Below are positions 22,363 through 41,881 of a DNA stretch of 49,114 nucleotides, piece by piece. A model generated the notes under the pieces. The model had not been told where the DNA came from, made no database searches, and saw only the letters and a program-made list of their open reading frames with translations. The stretch comes from a virus. Lineage: Duplodnaviria; Heunggongvirae; Uroviricota; Caudoviricetes. The number at the start of each line of letters is the position of its first letter. Positions within the stretch are counted from its first letter, which is position 1. The stretch lies in IMG/VR virus record IMGVR_UViG_2513237200_000008; one strand, written 5' to 3'. Position numbers and translations under genes: made by a program.

Positions 22363-23176
22363 GTTTGCCCTTCTCCGTTAAAAATTCGTCGGGTAGTTTC
22401 TGAGGGGCGTAGATCGGCAGAGCATCGCAACTGCAATAAACCTCCTCCCCGGCAGCAGTGATTTCGTCATAAAAACCATATACGGGCTTAATAAGCCCCT
22501 GCTCCAGCGCCCACGAATCGCGGAGGAGATAAATTTTCTCGTCGCGCTCTTTGTGGTCCTGTCGGTATTTGTAGCCCGGACGCCGCCAGTTAGAATGCCA
22601 GCGCAGAGCAATCGCACCACTCTGAACAGCCAGCAGATACTTAACGTTGCTCGCCAGCTTATGTCCCTGGTCAATTGCCACCCGGCGACTGATAAAATCC
22701 ATATCCTTCACGGACTTCTGAAAACCGGCCTTCACTTCCCGGCGATCAATTTCGCTCACCCCGTCAGGCGGAATGGACGTAACCCATCCCTGAAAACGCT
22801 GTATGGTTTTCTCGATAGCCTGTTCGCGGTTGAGTTTTATCAGGTTGGCACTGGCGAAAATTCGCCTGTCTAGTTCCTTGCGAAACTCAGGTTTCAGTTT
22901 TTCAACAGTGATTTTTTTAGGGCCGTCAGGAGGCTGATCCCGTAATGCCCCGCCGTCGATGACAAGACGGCTGTAGATAGCGGTGAGGTGTTTTCTGGCT
23001 ACGGTATCATCAGGGGTTTCTCGCTGAGCGGCTACACGGAGTTTCCGGCACCATTCGAGCAATGATTTTTCGCTATCCCACCCGTGATTTACGTAGTAGT
23101 TAACGGCATCCGTCAGAACCTCATATAGCGTCCTGATCCGTTTCTTCTCCCTCACCGCCCGGCTGGAAATTGCCAT
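22343..23176 (-). CDS. Head morphogenesis protein (Mu F-like / SPP1 gp7-like); start placed at the Met with an AGGAGA RBS
   Basis: ORF directly downstream of the portal gene, overlapping its 3' end. Confidence 0.55.
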   Translation of the reverse strand: MAISSRAVREKKRIRTLYEVLTDAVNYYVNHGWDSEKSLLEWCRKLRVAAQRETPDDTVARKHLTAIYSRLVIDGGALRDQPPDGPKKITVEKLKPEFRKELDRRIFASANLIKLNREQAIEKTIQRFQGWVTSIPPDGVSEIDRREVKAGFQKSVKDMDFISRRVAIDQGHKLASNVKYLLAVQSGAIALRWHSNWRRPGYKYRQDHKERDEKIYLLRDSWALEQGLIKPVYGFYDEITAAGEEVYCSCDALPIYAPQKLPDEFLTEKGKREFNRA

Positions 23177-24560
23177 CAGGCGTCTCCTGCTTCGGTGGTT
23201 CATAATTCGCCAGCGCGTCCACATCAATGATGAGTGGAGCTTCGCCATAGGTTTGCGTGGCATTAACAAGGCTTGCCAGCCATTCAGTGACGGCGGCACG
23301 GTTTTCAGGATCAACCTGTGGCGACACGGCAGAGAAAAGTGCTATCGCCTGTTGAATCACTTTACTGTCGCTTTCCCGGCGTTTGTCCGGCGACTCCTCC
23401 ACCAGCTCCTGCCATGTCGCGGTAAATTCACGTCGCCACTGGTAAAACGTGGTTTTATAGTCATCAGTTATGATGTCCGGGTAATCATTTTTCAGCGACT
23501 GATAAAATTCCTCGTTCCAGGCGATGTACTGCACCAGGCGTTCGAAATAATCCATCACGGGTTCAATCTGCTGGCGTACACCATCGATATACTGGCTGAT
23601 GGCTTTCGAATCTTCGGTCCCCTCACCGAAACCATTCGAAAAGGCTTCCTCTTTGATGAGGATCGCCGGAACGTCACTCCCTGACGCAATATCGGAAATA
23701 ATATTGTCGCGTGCAGCGTTTAGCGCACCATCGATGTTTTGTAGATTTAGCGAGGTAACGTCCTCATCCTTCCCGATACTAAGCACACCTTTATTTTTTG
23801 CCTCTTTGACGTATTCCCTTTTTCGTCCCGTGGCGGCAGCCATGATCCCGTCAAGTTTCGAACCGTACTGCACAACTTTAGCTACCAGTACGCCCGCCTT
23901 CTGGCTGACGAGATCATTCGCCTCCATCGTGTTGATATAGGATTTCAGGGAATAAAGAACGCGCTGAAACACACTTCGTCCGGTGAATCCGAACGATGAA
24001 CTCTGAAACTCCAGATAAATCGGTGTGCCGTTGAAGATTTTCAGTGTGCGTGACGGATGCCAGTCTTTCCCACCAATCTTCAGTTTTTTATTGGCTTCCT
24101 GGAAAAACGGGCTGTTGGGGTTCTGGTCAGTCACCATCGAACCGGAAGCGTTCAACGGGTCCCACGCGTTGATATACACGTCATCTTCTGTCAGTCCGAA
24201 CGTCGGAAGCGGTTCACGACATGGAACGCTGTCGGTGCCCACGCCGATCGCTGCAGCACCGTAGCAACGAGACAGAAAAAACAGATTTTTAATCTTCTCG
24301 TTGACCTTCATGCGTTCCCATACCTCCTGAAAACGCCGCACAACCCTCTCGTCAGGGTCTGTCTCCACGTTATACTGGCGCGGCTTACACATCGCCATCA
24401 GTATGGGTTTTTCGACAAGTTTTCCGCCCAGAGGATGGAATTGCCACAGCTGCTTACACAATTCATAGCCAATGTCGGTTCCCGGCTGAATTTCTTCAGC
24501 CTCAAGAATATGCATCAGTGCTGAACCGAGGCCGCCAGTAATCTCGATCTCTGCCATCAA
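23121..24560 (-). CDS. Portal protein
   Basis: 479 aa, immediately downstream of terminase large subunit; acidic C-terminus. Confidence 0.7.
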   Translation of the reverse strand: MMAEIEITGGLGSALMHILEAEEIQPGTDIGYELCKQLWQFHPLGGKLVEKPILMAMCKPRQYNVETDPDERVVRRFQEVWERMKVNEKIKNLFFLSRCYGAAAIGVGTDSVPCREPLPTFGLTEDDVYINAWDPLNASGSMVTDQNPNSPFFQEANKKLKIGGKDWHPSRTLKIFNGTPIYLEFQSSSFGFTGRSVFQRVLYSLKSYINTMEANDLVSQKAGVLVAKVVQYGSKLDGIMAAATGRKREYVKEAKNKGVLSIGKDEDVTSLNLQNIDGALNAARDNIISDIASGSDVPAILIKEEAFSNGFGEGTEDSKAISQYIDGVRQQIEPVMDYFERLVQYIAWNEEFYQSLKNDYPDIITDDYKTTFYQWRREFTATWQELVEESPDKRRESDSKVIQQAIALFSAVSPQVDPENRAAVTEWLASLVNATQTYGEAPLIIDVDALANYEPPKQETPDGNFQPGGEGEETDQDAI

Positions 24561-24575
24561 AAATATCCTGATTTT

Positions 24576-25514
24576 TTACAACGCCGCGTAATTACCGTGC
24601 GCGATAATCAATCCATAGGTATAACAATCGAAAAGGTCATCAGCACGTTTATGCGCGTCTTTGTCTGCCAGGTGGAACCCGGCGATTTGTTTAATGAGGT
24701 GGTTTGCGGTGGTACGTTTGAATGAAACGGTCTTGTCGTAAGCCTCCCGGACGATTTTGCACATCCCCTGATAGTGGTAGCTGGATGCCATCACCGCCCG
24801 TTCGTCTTTACCTTTGCTGGTCAGTGCCGATTTAATCGGCGTCATATCCCAGCCTTCGGTTTCCGCCTTCTGGTTGAGGATTGCCCCCATCGCGGCGTCT
24901 TCCATAAAAATTCCCTGGCTGCCCAGACGCGGACGGCATAATTTCGCGAGGCGCTCGAGGTTGTCATAAACGCCGGGGATATATTCAGGAAGCAATGACG
25001 CTTTAATTTGCGTCACATCCCAGTCAATAATCGTCAGTTTTGGCTCGTCCGAATACGTTGACTCATAAGCGAAATACACCACGCCAGTACCATCATTTTC
25101 GGTCCCGCCTTTCAACGCCGTATCCATCACTGCGAAAATCATGTCGCAGTGCGGCGGCATCTCGACCGGCTGACCGTCCACCAGCAGCTTATCGACATCG
25201 AGTAACGCATCTTTGGACCAGTCCACGAACTCGGCAAGATATTCCTGCTGCCAGACGCGCGGATCGGATTTCTTCTCCGTTTCCTCTAGTTCTTCTTTCG
25301 GAATGTACGGATTCGACGAAGTTGGCGCATGGTGCATGACAAATCCCAGGGATTCATCGTGGCATATCGCGTAGAAAAAAATTGCTCTCGTCGATGCCGT
25401 TTGGTGTGGAAAATACCCACGCACAGCCGCGGTAATCGACAAGCGTCGGGCGTATAGCGCGGGGCCAGATTTCCTCGAGCATTTCCGGCGATTTAGTGAA
25501 TGCGGCCTCATCAA
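24576..25514 (-). CDS. Terminase large subunit, C-terminal (nuclease) portion; frame-shifted relative to the N-terminal part
   Basis: 312-aa ORF overlapping the N-terminal ATPase ORF by about 160 nt; frames join if an A7 run (25375-25381, + strand) is one base shorter. Confidence 0.65.
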   Translation of the reverse strand: MMRPHSLNRRKCSRKSGPALYARRLSITAAVRGYFPHQTASTRAIFFYAICHDESLGFVMHHAPTSSNPYIPKEELEETEKKSDPRVWQQEYLAEFVDWSKDALLDVDKLLVDGQPVEMPPHCDMIFAVMDTALKGGTENDGTGVVYFAYESTYSDEPKLTIIDWDVTQIKASLLPEYIPGVYDNLERLAKLCRPRLGSQGIFMEDAAMGAILNQKAETEGWDMTPIKSALTSKGKDERAVMASSYHYQGMCKIVREAYDKTVSFKRTTANHLIKQIAGFHLADKDAHKRADDLFDCYTYGLIIAHGNYAAL

Positions 25515-25905
25515 TCAGCACAGCGTGATATTTACGCCCACGCCCGGCCAGTTTGTTATTGTCCGTTACCCAAAAGTCGATGCGCCCCCCATTACGGAGA
25601 ATGATGCGCTTTTCATTTTTTGACTGACTGAGGATCAGCGGTTGCAGAACGGCGCTAATTTCATCCCAGATTTCCTGGTACTGGCGGTATTGCGCGGTAA
25701 AAATCCCCACCCTACCCGCGATAAGTTGCCCGGTGGTAGGAACGGCAAATTTCCGCGTAGCGAAACTGGTAGCGATGTTCACCAGCATCACCGTTTTACC
25801 CCAGCGACGACCACAGCATACCGCGTGGAAGCGTTCCTCTATTGCCGCCGTCCATGCAGCTATTTGCCCCTCATGAGGTTTTGGGAGGTAGATTTCAATC
25901 GACAT
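25354..25905 (-). CDS. Terminase large subunit, N-terminal ATPase portion
   Basis: Walker A-like CCGRRWGKT and Walker B-like YHAVLIDEAAF motifs. Confidence 0.7.
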   Translation of the reverse strand: MSIEIYLPKPHEGQIAAWTAAIEERFHAVCCGRRWGKTVMLVNIATSFATRKFAVPTTGQLIAGRVGIFTAQYRQYQEIWDEISAVLQPLILSQSKNEKRIILRNGGRIDFWVTDNNKLAGRGRKYHAVLIDEAAFTKSPEMLEEIWPRAIRPTLVDYRGCAWVFSTPNGIDESNFFLRDMPR

Positions 25906-26986
25906 TATCCACTCCCGGCATCGGCAGAGAGTTGTGGATAATTATTTCGTTATTCTCACCACCCACGCCTTTTTTGAGGTTTTCAATCTCAGTGCGCAGC
26001 TTTTCGTTGCGAAGCCTCAGTCCTTCAAGCTCCAGATCATTGCGACTGTCAGTTGCACCACCAGCAGAACTTCCTTTCGTCGCCATTATCAGCTTGATAA
26101 GTTCGCGCCGGGCGGCAGCCTTATCCTCCAGCAGAATCTCAACACCAAATTTCCCGAGCTTTGCCCCTGCATATAATTGTCGCGCATCCCCATCAAGCAG
26201 AGTGGTATCAGCCATATAAAGCTGTCCCGTTCCCTCACCGCAGCACTTCGGACAATCCGGATTAGGTATGGCGTTATCAACAAAGCCGAGGCCTCCATAT
26301 TCCGGTTCAGGTTTGCCATCTCTGGAAGCCTGTGCCGCTGCGTTGTCGAATTCTGCTATATCGCGCCACTGGTAGAGATGATTCTCGCCCCAGCAATAAC
26401 GACAGTTAACACGGCGAAATTGTGCCAACTGATTGGGGTCGGCCTGGACAATGGCCATCAACTGACTCACCAGTAAATCCAGGTCTGCGGTATAGCGTTT
26501 CTGGTACTGATTGCGGAAGTAGCTGATGGCACGATAAACCTTAGGATTTCTTAGGAGCTGGCTGGCGGTTACGTAGGCCGCATTCCCCTCTGACTCGTAT
26601 CCTGCCAGGCGATATGCCTCAACGAGTTTTTTCCCCTGGGCAACCAGCATTGCGAATTTCGCCTGCTGGTCTGAAATACCGAATTCATCGGGACAGAACG
26701 AAATTTCTTCCGCATCGCCCTCATTCAGGTACGCATCGGATACTGGCTTTTTTTCCTGAGATTTTCCGTTCCGCTTTTGCACAGTCTGCGCAGGTTTTTT
26801 CTGCGCACTTTTTTGCGCAGTTTTGCGCAATTCTGCCTGCGCATTTTTCGGAGGTTTTTTGATATAACGACGGGCTGTTGCGTAATTCAGTTCCCTTGCT
26901 TCACACCATGCCACCGGAGATATACCGGAGCGGGTGTATTCAGCAATATACTCCTGCTGCAACGCCCCCCAGTCCGGTCTGCTCAT
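25895..26986 (-). CDS. Terminase small subunit-like protein
   Basis: 363-aa ORF immediately upstream of terminase large subunit with stop/start overlap. Confidence 0.5.
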   Translation of the reverse strand: MSRPDWGALQQEYIAEYTRSGISPVAWCEARELNYATARRYIKKPPKNAQAELRKTAQKSAQKKPAQTVQKRNGKSQEKKPVSDAYLNEGDAEEISFCPDEFGISDQQAKFAMLVAQGKKLVEAYRLAGYESEGNAAYVTASQLLRNPKVYRAISYFRNQYQKRYTADLDLLVSQLMAIVQADPNQLAQFRRVNCRYCWGENHLYQWRDIAEFDNAAAQASRDGKPEPEYGGLGFVDNAIPNPDCPKCCGEGTGQLYMADTTLLDGDARQLYAGAKLGKFGVEILLEDKAAARRELIKLIMATKGSSAGGATDSRNDLELEGLRLRNEKLRTEIENLKKGVGGENNEIIIHNSLPMPGVDNVD

Positions 26987-26989
26987 CAG

Positions 26990-27241
26990 TTAATCCTGAT
27001 TTTTATCCACCCTGAGTAGTTCGCGCAGGGCAAAGGCATCCCCTTTTCTGGCAAGCTTAAACAATGCCGCCCGTAGCTCGGCTTCACCTTTCGCTCTGCC
27101 CTTACGGATGGACGCATAAAAATTTGTCATTGCTTCCCGATTTTCTTTCAGTCGGTTCAGATCAACATCCAGAACGTCAGCGATTTGTTGTGCAGTCATC
27201 CGGCACGCTGCCAGAGACTCGACTTTCGAATACGGAATCAT
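26990..27241 (-). CDS. Small hypothetical protein (possibly DNA-binding)
   Basis: 83-aa ORF upstream of the terminase small subunit. Confidence 0.3.
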   Translation of the reverse strand: MIPYSKVESLAACRMTAQQIADVLDVDLNRLKENREAMTNFYASIRKGRAKGEAELRAALFKLARKGDAFALRELLRVDKNQD

Positions 27242-28127
27242 TTGTCACCCCCATTGATATGCAGGGTGTCTTCTTCCTGTATTTTTCGTGAAGGATTTTT
27301 ACTGCAGCGTTGTTCCAGGTGACCTGATGGTGAATGCGTTTATGGCTGGCACCCATCAGTGAGATTTTTACACACGACGGCGCATACATGACGGAGTAAA
27401 AACTTTTAACGTAGGTTCCGGAATCCAGATACAGCTCGGTCATTCCGCCGCTGTTTTTCTGCGTCTGTTTCTGCCCTAACTGGACAGCACCGATCGTCAT
27501 AAACAATTCACCACAGCGACCGAGATTCGTGTACGTATTCACATCCTCGTTAATGCGCCCCATGAATGAGAACGGTCGATCAACCGAACAGATAAAGCTG
27601 TTCATTGCCTTGCGTTTCACCCACGAAGCATGGCCGCCATTGTCACCAAGAAAATCCCCGCCCTGCGACATAGCGATGGAAAGCGCAGGTATTGATTCGT
27701 AGTACGCCAGCATTTCAGAAAGGATCGCATCCAGTTTTCTTATCGGGAAATAGGCCTGGTCATAGTTGCGATCCACCCGAAACTGGAACTCGTGATAATC
27801 ATCATCGAGCTGAATGAAGTATTTACACCCGACCAGTTTTACCAGGTCGAAACAGGCATTACGGGCGTAAAAAATTGAGCGGCGATCACCGAAATTATCG
27901 GCTTCGTCAAAACGACTGGCTATATCGGCTTTGGAAAACACCAGCACCTGTTCACCAAATTCAGCTATGTACTGATGCCGTGTCTTATCTTCATCATCAA
28001 CAACGATAAAAACTTTCCCGGTATAGCCAGCACGACGCAACGTCCGGTAAGTCAGAACTTTGTCCGGGCGCCCGTGAGTCAGAATAAAGGCGCAAAAATC
28101 ATCACGCATATTCCTCCTCCCCGCCAT
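27177..28127 (-). CDS. Hypothetical protein with a possible GT-A-like DxD motif, partner of the ParB-like nuclease
   Basis: 316 aa; DDD motif (QLDDDYHEF) about 110 residues in; overlaps the ParB-like gene stop; fold assignment is inferred. Confidence 0.45.
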   Translation of the reverse strand: MAGRRNMRDDFCAFILTHGRPDKVLTYRTLRRAGYTGKVFIVVDDEDKTRHQYIAEFGEQVLVFSKADIASRFDEADNFGDRRSIFYARNACFDLVKLVGCKYFIQLDDDYHEFQFRVDRNYDQAYFPIRKLDAILSEMLAYYESIPALSIAMSQGGDFLGDNGGHASWVKRKAMNSFICSVDRPFSFMGRINEDVNTYTNLGRCGELFMTIGAVQLGQKQTQKNSGGMTELYLDSGTYVKSFYSVMYAPSCVKISLMGASHKRIHHQVTWNNAAVKILHEKYRKKTPCISMGVTNDSVFESRVSGSVPDDCTTNR

Positions 28128-40708: not shown

Positions 40709-41131
40709 TTAATGAACAATGACAGAATCGTCGGAAGAACCGCCGCCGCTGAAATGCGCTTTCCGGTAAACGGCTTGGACTGCATCATCATGCGCATCAA
40801 TTGCCGTACTTAACGCTTCCTGCGCCGCCAGTAATGCACGGCGTTCCAGGGTATCGAAGATGCAGAGTCGGTGACGCAGCTCGCGCGGAAGGATTGCCAG
40901 AATTGCTGGGATCAGCTTCTGAATTTTTTCTCTTTGCGTTTTCGTTTCACCTTTCAACCAACGGTGATAGATATTCTGCTGATTGTTCCAGTCCTTGCCT
41001 GGTACCAGGGGCAATTCGCCGCCCCCCTGGCGCAGATATTCTTCAGTAATTGCGTTAGCGACCCACGCCTGCCCTTTTTCGGCTGCCAGGGCTAACAACA
41101 CTGATTCGATGTGCTCATGCTTGATTTTCAT
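40709..41131 (-). CDS. ydaT: YdaT-like protein (CII-like regulator/toxic protein of Rac)
   Basis: 140 aa; position downstream of the Cro-like gene. Confidence 0.55.
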   Translation of the reverse strand: MKIKHEHIESVLLALAAEKGQAWVANAITEEYLRQGGGELPLVPGKDWNNQQNIYHRWLKGETKTQREKIQKLIPAILAILPRELRHRLCIFDTLERRALLAAQEALSTAIDAHDDAVQAVYRKAHFSGGGSSDDSVIVH

Positions 41132-41382
41132 GAATCAACTCCCATCAGCTTTTTCGTAGTAGTTTTATTTCTGCCAATAGTTAAAATTGCATCGGCAGAA
41201 AATAATCCGTTTGATGCATGAGCGATTTTTTCAGCGTAATTTGTTTCGCCGGTATATTCTGTGCGAGGCAATTTTCCGTTATCCATCCATTTGTAGATTG
41301 CTCTTTGGCTGACACCACAAACGTCGGCCACAACAGAAACGCGAACAGTTTTGATTACATCTTCAAGTGTTTTCTGGTTCAT
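41128..41382 (-). CDS. ydaS: Cro-like HTH regulator (Rac YdaS-like); start at internal Met MNQKTLEDV
   Basis: HTH-like VADVCGVSQRAIYKWMDNGKLP; divergent from the repressor gene. Confidence 0.6.
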   Translation of the reverse strand: MNQKTLEDVIKTVRVSVVADVCGVSQRAIYKWMDNGKLPRTEYTGETNYAEKIAHASNGLFSADAILTIGRNKTTTKKLMGVDS

Positions 41383-41405: not shown

Positions 41406-41439
41406 GAGTACATGCTATAACAGAGCTGACAGTACATTC
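41406..41439. promoter_or_regulatory. Operator-like direct repeats GAGTACATGC / CAGTACATTC in the repressor/cro intergenic region (OR-like)
   Basis: GTACAT at 41408-41413 and 41432-41437, read directly. Confidence 0.45.
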
Positions 41440-41461: not shown

Positions 41462-41881
41462 ATGGTTCATGAAGATAAAGCGCGTAAAGAGTTCGCCAGT
41501 AGGCTTGCGCTAGCCTGTGAAAACGCTGGTTATGAACAACATGGAAGGCAGGCAGAAATTGCCCGTCGAATGAAATTAACACCAAAAGCGGTTAGCAAAT
41601 GGTTTAATGGTGAAACAATTCCTCGCCGAGAGAAATTAAGGGAATTAGCAACACTCATTGGAACAACACCAACCTATCTTTTGGGAGAGGATACAGAAGA
41701 AAGTGGACAGATACGTTTCTATCAGGAGTTAAATCCAAGACAAAAAATCATCATTGACCTTCTGGACGAGCTCCCTGACAGTGAGACAGATGAACTTTTA
41801 AAAACTCTTGAGGAGAAAAAACAGAAGTACAATGCAATTTACGAAGAGTTAGCACGAAAGAAAAAACAAAAAGCCTCTTAA
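41462..41881 (+). CDS. racR: XRE-family HTH repressor (RacR-like prophage repressor)
   Basis: N-terminal HTH (QAEIARRMKLTPKAVSKWFNGETIP); divergent from the cro-like gene. Confidence 0.6.
   Translation: MVHEDKARKEFASRLALACENAGYEQHGRQAEIARRMKLTPKAVSKWFNGETIPRREKLRELATLIGTTPTYLLGEDTEESGQIRFYQELNPRQKIIIDLLDELPDSETDELLKTLEEKKQKYNAIYEELARKKKQKAS

What the first reader, a model, noticed from the sequence alone, without database searches (positions are those of the whole stretch)
25354..25514. Terminase large subunit split at an A7 homopolymer: frameshift mutation, sequencing error or slippage site
The N-terminal ATPase ORF (25354-25905) and the C-terminal nuclease ORF (24576-25514) overlap in different frames. 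On the coding strand the T7 run (A7 at 25375-25381 on +) reads ...ESNFFLRDMPR-stop; with one fewer T the frames join seamlessly (...ESNFFYAICHDESLGFVMHH...). So either the prophage carries an inactivating +1 insertion in its packaging ATPase/nuclease (a cryptic, non-packaging prophage despite a complete structural module), or this is a homopolymer sequencing error, or expression needs slippage.
Basis: seen in the sequence. Interest (0 to 1): 0.55.

Follow-up and report, generated by a model that had tools for sequence, protein, structure and literature searches.

The report
One-base frameshift in prophage terminase
The DNA-packaging gene (large terminase) of a Rac-type prophage is broken by one extra T in a run of six, a change seen only in this laboratory strain's record and in no close relative, so it is an ordinary private mutation or sequencing error and not a special expression mechanism.

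Summary
On the minus strand a T7 run (window 25381-25375) splits terL into a 183-codon ORF (25354-25905) and a +1-frame continuation. Removing one T gives a 442-aa protein identical to the TerL of E. coli W. The window is the Rac*W prophage as deposited for E. coli KO11FL (CP002970). It differs from strain W at only four positions in 49 kb. Three of them lie within 218 bp of terL: the extra T and two synonymous transitions. All three are private. The run is T6 in 85 of 85 complete E. coli genomes with the gene, in 51 of 51 IMG/VR contigs and in two phage records. These include W (two assemblies) and LY180, which I recall is a KO11 descendant. The break lies inside the ATPase domain, after Walker A, Walker B and the STP motif, not at a domain border. 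No recoding signal was found. A natural two-gene terminase and programmed slippage are therefore rejected. Consensus or finishing error (about 0.55) and a genuine recent lab-lineage mutation (about 0.38) cannot be separated without reads. T7 also occurs in two unrelated assemblies, one of them full of +1 homopolymer insertions. Interest is low.

The parts
25375..25381 (-). T7 homopolymer (A7 on +). It is the site of the one-base insertion, and relatives have T6 here. It spans the third base of codon N175 plus F176 and F177.
25354..25905 (-). 5' part of terL as an ORF of 183 codons. Residues 1-177 are authentic (Walker A 31-38 CGRRWGKT, Walker B 128-133 AVLIDE, STP 166-168), followed by six out-of-frame residues LRDMPR and a TGA stop. 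It is annotated in GenBank as AFH18146.1 'hypothetical protein KO11_15885'.
24576..25373 (-). 3' part of terL in the +1 frame: residues Y178-L442 plus the stop codon. It holds the rest of the ATPase domain and the nuclease region (phrog_38 and phrog_2 matches).
25335..25337 (-). Internal ATG (M190 of intact TerL), 17 nt after the premature stop. Gene callers start a 253-aa C-terminal fragment here in L006. Reinitiation at this codon is only an inference.
25287..25287 (-). Private synonymous substitution: CTA here versus CTG (Leu) in W and all relatives checked.
25164..25164 (-). Private synonymous substitution: GTC here versus GTT (Val) in W and all relatives checked.
25895..26986 (-). Terminase small subunit gene (363 aa, Pfam Terminase_2). 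It overlaps the terL start by 11 nt and is intact.
23121..24557 (-). Portal gene (478 aa, Pfam Phage_portal_3), the next gene after terL. It is intact.

Best explanation
The window is the Rac*W prophage as deposited for E. coli KO11FL (CP002970). Its terL carries one extra T in a coding T6 run. This shifts the frame after residue 177, inside the ATPase domain, and stops translation six codons later. The ancestral and universal state is T6 with one 442-aa TerL, so nothing about the phage family needs two ORFs or recoding. I judge the extra T, together with the two synonymous transitions 94 and 217 bp downstream, most likely to be a local error of the deposited consensus. A poorly supported or PCR-derived finishing patch would explain it, and it would not be a change present in the strain's DNA. 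Shown: the insertion, its privacy, the clustering and the position in the ATPase domain. Inferred: that the cause is technical.
For: The window and E. coli W differ at only 4 positions in 49,114 bases. Three of them (25164, 25287 and the extra base at 25381) fall within 218 bp of terL. The chance of such clustering for 4 random sites is about 3e-4. All three are private. The run is T6 in 85 of 85 complete E. coli genomes carrying the gene. It is also T6 in 51 of 51 IMG/VR contigs and in two phage records. The two substitutions are absent from 84 complete genomes and from 49-50 IMG/VR contigs. Two independent assemblies of the parent W and the related strain LY180 all have T6 and neither substitution. 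That LY180 descends from KO11 is my recollection, not a tool result. The same T6-to-T7 call also appears in an unrelated draft assembly (L004, GCA_004745385.1). That assembly has four separate +1 insertions in A/T homopolymers within 6.5 kb, so this run is readily over-called by sequencing. Two transitions plus a homopolymer +1 is the typical polymerase (PCR) error spectrum (general knowledge). As far as I recall, this 2011-2012 JGI project used 454 plus Illumina with PCR-based finishing. I could not check this.
Against: Substitution errors are unusual in a finished, Illumina-polished consensus, and only the indel is a classic 454-type error. From my memory of Turner et al. 2012 (not held), KO11FL carries accumulated real SNPs and many IS10 copies. 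The fourth difference, at 41425, looks like an ordinary isolated SNP. A Logan assembly of an unrelated strain (L006, SRR6148325) has T7 as its only indel in 4.4 kb, so the run may also mutate in nature. No reads or second KO11FL assembly could be reached.
Confidence: 0.55

Rival explanations
1. The mutation is genuine and arose recently in the KO11FL laboratory lineage. Replication slippage expanded T6 to T7, with two nearby transitions arising in the same or separate events. This truncates TerL after the STP motif and removes the rest of the ATPase domain and the nuclease region. The Rac*W prophage in KO11FL could then no longer cut and package DNA, although its other 49 kb are intact.
For: The sequence as deposited shows it, and GenBank annotates the truncated product (AFH18146.1). 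All four differences from W are transitions or a homopolymer +1, which is also the spectrum of replication errors that escape mismatch repair (general knowledge). From the bit scores, LY180 also appears to have one private difference in this window. Real SNPs at about 1 per 50 kb are therefore plausible in these lineages. T7 at the same site in an independent lineage (L006) with no other indel suggests the run is naturally mutable. The two substitutions are not homopolymer-type sequencing errors.
Against: Three independent spontaneous changes within 218 bp, against one in the other 48.9 kb, are very unlikely (P about 3e-4). Two of them are synonymous, so selection cannot explain the cluster. 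No related sequence carries these variants, so gene conversion is excluded. The related strain LY180 lacks them.
Confidence: 0.38
2. The run is a recoding site. Full-length TerL would be made from the T7 allele by +1 ribosomal slippage of tRNA-Phe from UUU to UUC before the rare CUA codon, or by transcriptional slippage on the U7/A7 run. The 183-aa product would be a regulated second product.
For: A +1 shift at UUU_UUU_C would give exactly the wild-type protein sequence (direct reading). The 0-frame codon after the run, CUA, is the rarest Leu codon in this prophage, at 4.8 per 1000 and 5.6% of Leu codons. Low-level leakiness at such sites is known in E. coli (general knowledge).
Against: The two-frame layout is not conserved. 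138 related sequences checked at the run itself have T6 and one ORF, and the full-length 442-aa protein cluster has 644 members. The RNA downstream of the run folds no better than shuffles (z = -1.16). There is no Rfam match. No SD-like element lies at the short spacing that stimulates +1 shifts (direct reading). Seven U/A is shorter than the runs of 9 or more used by known transcriptional slippage sites (general knowledge).
Confidence: 0.04
3. The terminase is naturally split, and this phage group encodes the large terminase as two separate polypeptides.
For: Only the two overlapping ORFs in this window.
Against: No relative is split at this site. The break falls in the middle of the ATPase fold, at Pfam Terminase_6N profile position about 150 of 215. 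The second ORF has no start codon at the junction. One deleted base restores identity to the W protein.
Confidence: 0.01

Closest known systems
E. coli W Rac*W prophage terminase large subunit (WP_000021163.1; Archer et al. 2011, PMC3032704, name the prophage Rac*W at ttcA)
   Same: The DNA is identical apart from one extra T and two synonymous bases, and the protein is identical once one T is removed. TerS, portal and all other genes of the 49-kb prophage are the same.
   Different: W has T6 and one 442-aa ORF. The window has T7 and a stop after 183 codons.
Homopolymer frameshift pseudogenes and homopolymer miscalls in bacterial genome records
   Same: It is a single-base length change in an A/T run, private to one record, and it splits an otherwise conserved gene. 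An unrelated draft (L004) shows the same miscall pattern at four runs.
   Different: It is accompanied here by two nearby substitutions, which a pure homopolymer miscall does not explain.
Programmed +1 frameshifting (E. coli prfB, CUU UGA C) and transcriptional slippage at long A/T runs (for example Thermus dnaX, Shigella mxiE, IS elements)
   Same: A slippery Phe codon is followed by a slowly decoded codon, and a U/A run is present. A +1 event would restore the wild-type protein.
   Different: The site is not conserved and has no upstream SD stimulator or downstream structure. The run is only 7 long, and the ancestral gene needs no shift.
Escherichia phage Rac-SA53 (KU052037) and phage record PP818812
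   Same: terL is 97.4% identical over its full length, with the same TerS-TerL-portal order.
   Different: Both have an intact T6 terL.

Membership tests
Phage terminase large subunit (TerL; Pfam Terminase_6N, PHROG 2) | Profile match over the whole protein | tested here: met
   The repaired or W protein matches phrog_2 at E = 4.6e-36 over residues 7-432, and Pfam PF03237 at 23.6 bits (cut-off 22) over residues 32-234. The two window fragments hit consecutive parts of phrog_2.
Phage terminase large subunit (TerL; Pfam Terminase_6N, PHROG 2) | ATPase motifs: Walker A, Walker B and the coupling (C) motif | tested here: met
   CGRRWGKT at 31-38, AVLIDE at 128-133 and STP at 166-168. The STP region aligns with ISTPKG of the phage P74-26 TerL ATPase domain 4zni, a weak match at E = 0.046.
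Phage terminase large subunit (TerL; Pfam Terminase_6N, PHROG 2) | C-terminal RNase H-like nuclease domain with catalytic acidic residues | tested here: inconclusive
   The C-terminal 253 aa match the TerL families phrog_38 (3e-9) and phrog_2 (6e-9). No structure was modelled and the catalytic residues were not mapped.
Phage terminase large subunit (TerL; Pfam Terminase_6N, PHROG 2) | One uninterrupted reading frame encoding both domains | tested here: not met
   In the window the frame breaks after residue 177. It is met in all relatives. The window copy is therefore a disrupted member.
Programmed recoding site (ribosomal frameshift or transcriptional slippage) | The slippery run and two-frame gene layout are conserved among homologs | tested here: not met
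   The run is T6 with a single ORF in 85 of 85 complete E. coli genomes, 51 of 51 IMG/VR contigs and 2 phage records.
Programmed recoding site (ribosomal frameshift or transcriptional slippage) | A stimulatory element: an SD-like sequence at short spacing, or a downstream hairpin or pseudoknot | tested here: not met
   The downstream 88 nt fold at -20.2 kcal/mol with z = -1.16 against shuffles. No Rfam family matches at E <= 1. No SD-like sequence lies within about 3 nt upstream (direct reading).
Programmed recoding site (ribosomal frameshift or transcriptional slippage) | Both protein products are made in vivo | not testable with these tools
   This needs a reporter assay or proteomics.
Sequencing or assembly homopolymer error | The change is private to one record and absent from sister strains and independent assemblies of the same lineage | tested here: met
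   W (two assemblies), LY180, AQ15, SL112 and other W-type genomes all have T6. The other KO11FL assembly, CP002516, could not be reached.
Sequencing or assembly homopolymer error | The raw reads disagree with the consensus | not testable with these tools
   No read access. The only Logan contig with the exact truncated protein belongs to a different lineage.

The most novel reading that the evidence does not exclude
The T6 run of terL in Rac-type prophages is a recurrent slippage hot spot. T7 is seen in three unrelated lineages: KO11FL, GCA_004745385.1 and SRR6148325. On this reading the run would toggle packaging off and on, or stay partly expressed through +1 slippage at UUU-CUA. The host would gain a reversible way to silence virion production while keeping the prophage.
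Probability: 0.04. Interest if true: 0.45.

Novelty: already known. Interest (0 to 1): 0.1.

Why it matters
It matters little beyond record quality. If the T7 is real, the Rac*W prophage of the industrial ethanol strain KO11FL cannot package DNA, which is a minor biosafety and phage-release detail for that strain. If it is an error, the GenBank/RefSeq record splits a normal terminase gene and should be corrected. In both cases it says nothing new about terminases or recoding. The case does show that a frameshift in one record should be compared with sister strains before it is read as biology.

Tried and rejected
1. Natural two-gene terminase: rejected, because all relatives have a single ORF.
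2. Programmed frameshift or slippage: rejected as a designed feature, because there is no conservation, no downstream structure and no Rfam hit.
3. Gene conversion from another allele as the source of the three clustered changes: rejected. None of 84 complete genomes or about 50 IMG/VR contigs carries either substitution, and W has only one copy of the gene.
4. Reaching the second KO11FL assembly (CP002516) indirectly through protein accession lists: led nowhere. The lists for five neighbouring proteins contain no entry from that record, so it is apparently not in the collection.
5. Exact look-up of the C-terminal fragment proteins (253 and 312 aa): not in the collection.
6. Turner et al. 2012 (KO11 genome paper): not held. 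Papers citing it give no SNP list.
It was replaced by a gapped pattern taken from the window.
8. Looking for complete genomes nearly identical to L004 and L006, to judge whether their T7 is also private: the nearest are only 96-98% identical, so this was uninformative.

Full report
**Observation**

The coding (minus) strand reads ...GAC GAG AGC AAT TTT TTT CTA CGC GAT ATG CCA CGA TGA. The T7 run lies at window 25381-25375, which is A7 on the plus strand. The ORF listing returns a 183-aa ORF at 25354-25905 (-), ending ESNFFLRDMPR*. It also returns a 312-aa ORF at 24576-25514 (-) in another frame. Both pieces hit terminase large subunit families at consecutive positions of the same profile: phrog_2 positions 262-407 and 425-589. 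Deleting one T gives a 442-aa protein identical to the TerL of E. coli W, WP_000021163.1.

**Where the window comes from**

- The exact 183-aa product is GenBank AFH18146.1, 'hypothetical protein KO11_15885', from E. coli KO11FL, on CP002970.1. The DNA fetched from that record is identical to the window across terL.
- The 49-kb window is the Rac-type prophage integrated at ttcA, which Archer et al. named Rac*W (PMC3032704). It runs from intR, xisR and recET to the tail fibres.
- Against E. coli W (NC_017664) the window differs at four positions only: 25164 (G here, A in W), 25287 (T here, C in W), an extra A at 25381, and 41425 (G here, A in W).
- The first three lie within 218 bp of terL. The two substitutions are synonymous on the coding strand: GTC versus GTT (Val) and CTA versus CTG (Leu).
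- For four randomly placed differences, three within 218 bp has a probability of about 3e-4.

**Comparison with relatives**

- 85 of 5,426 complete E. coli genomes carry this terL at 90-99.8% identity. 84 of them cover at least 80% of the query, and every listed match spans 1329 nt against the 1330-nt query.
- With a 91-nt probe centred on the run, none of the 85 is identical, and all 60 listed matches span 90 nt, meaning T6.
- A pattern scan of IMG/VR found 0 contigs with T7 and 51 with T6.
- Phage records Rac-SA53 and PP818812 have intact terL genes, and Rac-SA53 was confirmed as T6.
- The full-length 442-aa protein cluster has 644 member sequences, and the exact W protein is on record on 413 contigs.
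- The two synonymous substitutions are also private. No complete genome exceeds 98.9% identity over the 186-nt probe containing them. All 50 and all 49 informative IMG/VR contigs carry the W bases at the two sites.
- The W-type genomes, namely W (two independent assemblies), LY180, AQ15, SL112 and others, all share T6 and the W bases. That LY180 descends from KO11 is my own recollection.

**Other T7 carriers**

The exact truncated protein is also encoded on two unrelated contigs.

- L004 (GCA_004745385.1) differs from W by 323 substitutions in 6.5 kb. It has four separate +1 insertions in A/T homopolymers: A7 to A8, T5 to T6, T6 to T7 and T5 to T6. This is a pattern of systematic homopolymer over-calling.
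- L006 (a Logan assembly of SRR6148325) differs by 197 substitutions in 4.4 kb and has T7 as its only indel.
- Neither has a near-identical complete genome for comparison.

The run is therefore over-called by at least one sequencing data set. It may also mutate in nature.

**Position in the protein**

- Residues 1-177 are authentic. They contain Walker A (CGRRWGKT, 31-38), Walker B (AVLIDE, 128-133) and the STP motif (166-168).
- Pfam Terminase_6N spans residues 32-234 of the intact protein.
- Residues 116-178 align weakly (E = 0.046) with residues 133-192 of the 274-residue ATPase-domain chain of phage P74-26 TerL.
- The frame therefore breaks inside the ATPase fold, not at the ATPase/nuclease border.
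- The truncated product lacks the end of the ATPase domain and all of the nuclease region, so it should be unable to package DNA. This is an inference from established TerL biology.
- An ATG (M190) lies 17 nt after the premature stop and could start a 253-aa fragment. Nothing suggests the two pieces would reassemble.

**Recoding**

- A +1 slip of tRNA-Phe from UUU to UUC would restore the wild-type sequence exactly.
- The 0-frame codon after the run, CUA, is the rarest Leu codon in this prophage, at 4.8 per 1000. Some leakiness is therefore conceivable.
- The layout is not conserved in any relative.
- The downstream RNA folds no better than shuffled sequence (z = -1.16).
- No Rfam family matches.
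- No SD-like element sits close upstream (direct reading).
- Programmed slippage and a natural two-gene terminase are rejected.

**Error or mutation**

This cannot be settled without reads.

In favour of an error in the record:
- All three changes are private.
- They cluster tightly, and two of them are synonymous, so selection cannot account for the cluster.
- Sister strains lack them.
- L004 demonstrates miscalling at this very run.
- Two transitions plus a homopolymer +1 is a typical polymerase error spectrum. It would be expected from a PCR-derived finishing patch. My recollection that JGI used 454 plus Illumina with PCR finishing is unverified.

In favour of a real mutation:
- Substitutions are rare errors in polished consensus sequences.
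- As I recall from Turner et al. 2012 (not held), KO11FL accumulated SNPs and IS10 copies.
- The fourth difference, at 41425, looks like an ordinary SNP.
- L006 suggests natural mutability of the run.

I put the consensus error at about 0.55, a real lab-lineage mutation at about 0.38, and recoding or a natural split at 0.05 or less together.

**Comparison with known things and novelty**

This is a disrupted copy of a well-known TerL in a well-known prophage type, broken by the most common kind of frameshift. The GenBank record already shows the truncated product. Nothing here is new, and interest is low.

Noticed in passing
window 25164 and 25287: Two private synonymous transitions lie 217 and 94 bp downstream of the frameshift. 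Together with the extra T they make three of the only four differences from E. coli W in 49 kb (P about 3e-4 for such clustering). A local low-quality or PCR-derived consensus patch would explain this, as would a rare mutation cluster.
   Followed up: yes
window 41425: This is the fourth difference from E. coli W (G here, A in W). It lies in the 79-bp intergenic region between the divergent repressor-like HTH gene (41462-41881, +) and the cro-like HTH gene (41128-41382, -). It sits one base upstream of a -35-like CTGACA of a promoter-like site pointing at the repressor gene. It could alter immunity-switch expression in KO11FL.
   Followed up: partly
window 23121-24557 (-): RefSeq names the gene after terL 'anti-CBASS protein Acb1 family protein'. 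Its position and its Pfam hit (PF06381 Phage_portal_3, formerly DUF1073) mark it as the portal protein. The name is probably misleading.
   Followed up: partly
L004 (GCA_004745385.1, PDIK01000011.1) positions 243, 1765, 3525, 3996: Four separate +1 insertions in A/T homopolymers occur within 6.5 kb, splitting the ParB-like gene and terL (twice). This looks like systematic homopolymer over-calling in that assembly, and the same contig is on record for 4 samples.
   Followed up: partly
protein P0005 (CAD5744618.1 / WP_244577434.1, 177 aa): Another E. coli TerL fragment ends ...GIDES-VGL. It diverges from TerL one codon before the same T run, on a 46.6-kb contig. This may be an insertion or rearrangement breakpoint at the same A/T-rich spot.
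   Followed up: no
window about 27177-28127 (-) and its upstream neighbour (L001 16-1729): Just upstream of the terminase genes lie a ParB/Srx N-terminal domain gene and a 310-aa protein with Pfam PF20691 (TAGT, TET-associated glycosyltransferase). Together they could be a DNA-modification module in this Rac-type prophage.
   Followed up: no
records NZ_CP026085.1 and NZ_CM135829.1 ('E. coli DH5alpha'); PP818812.1 ('Actinobacillus phage vB_Apl-pPE4'): Two genomes labelled DH5alpha carry a Rac*W prophage that, apart from the four window-specific differences, matches strain W over the 49 kb, so they look like mislabelled W-lineage strains. A phage assigned to Actinobacillus has a terL 97.4% identical to this E. 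coli prophage gene, so its host assignment looks doubtful.
   Followed up: no
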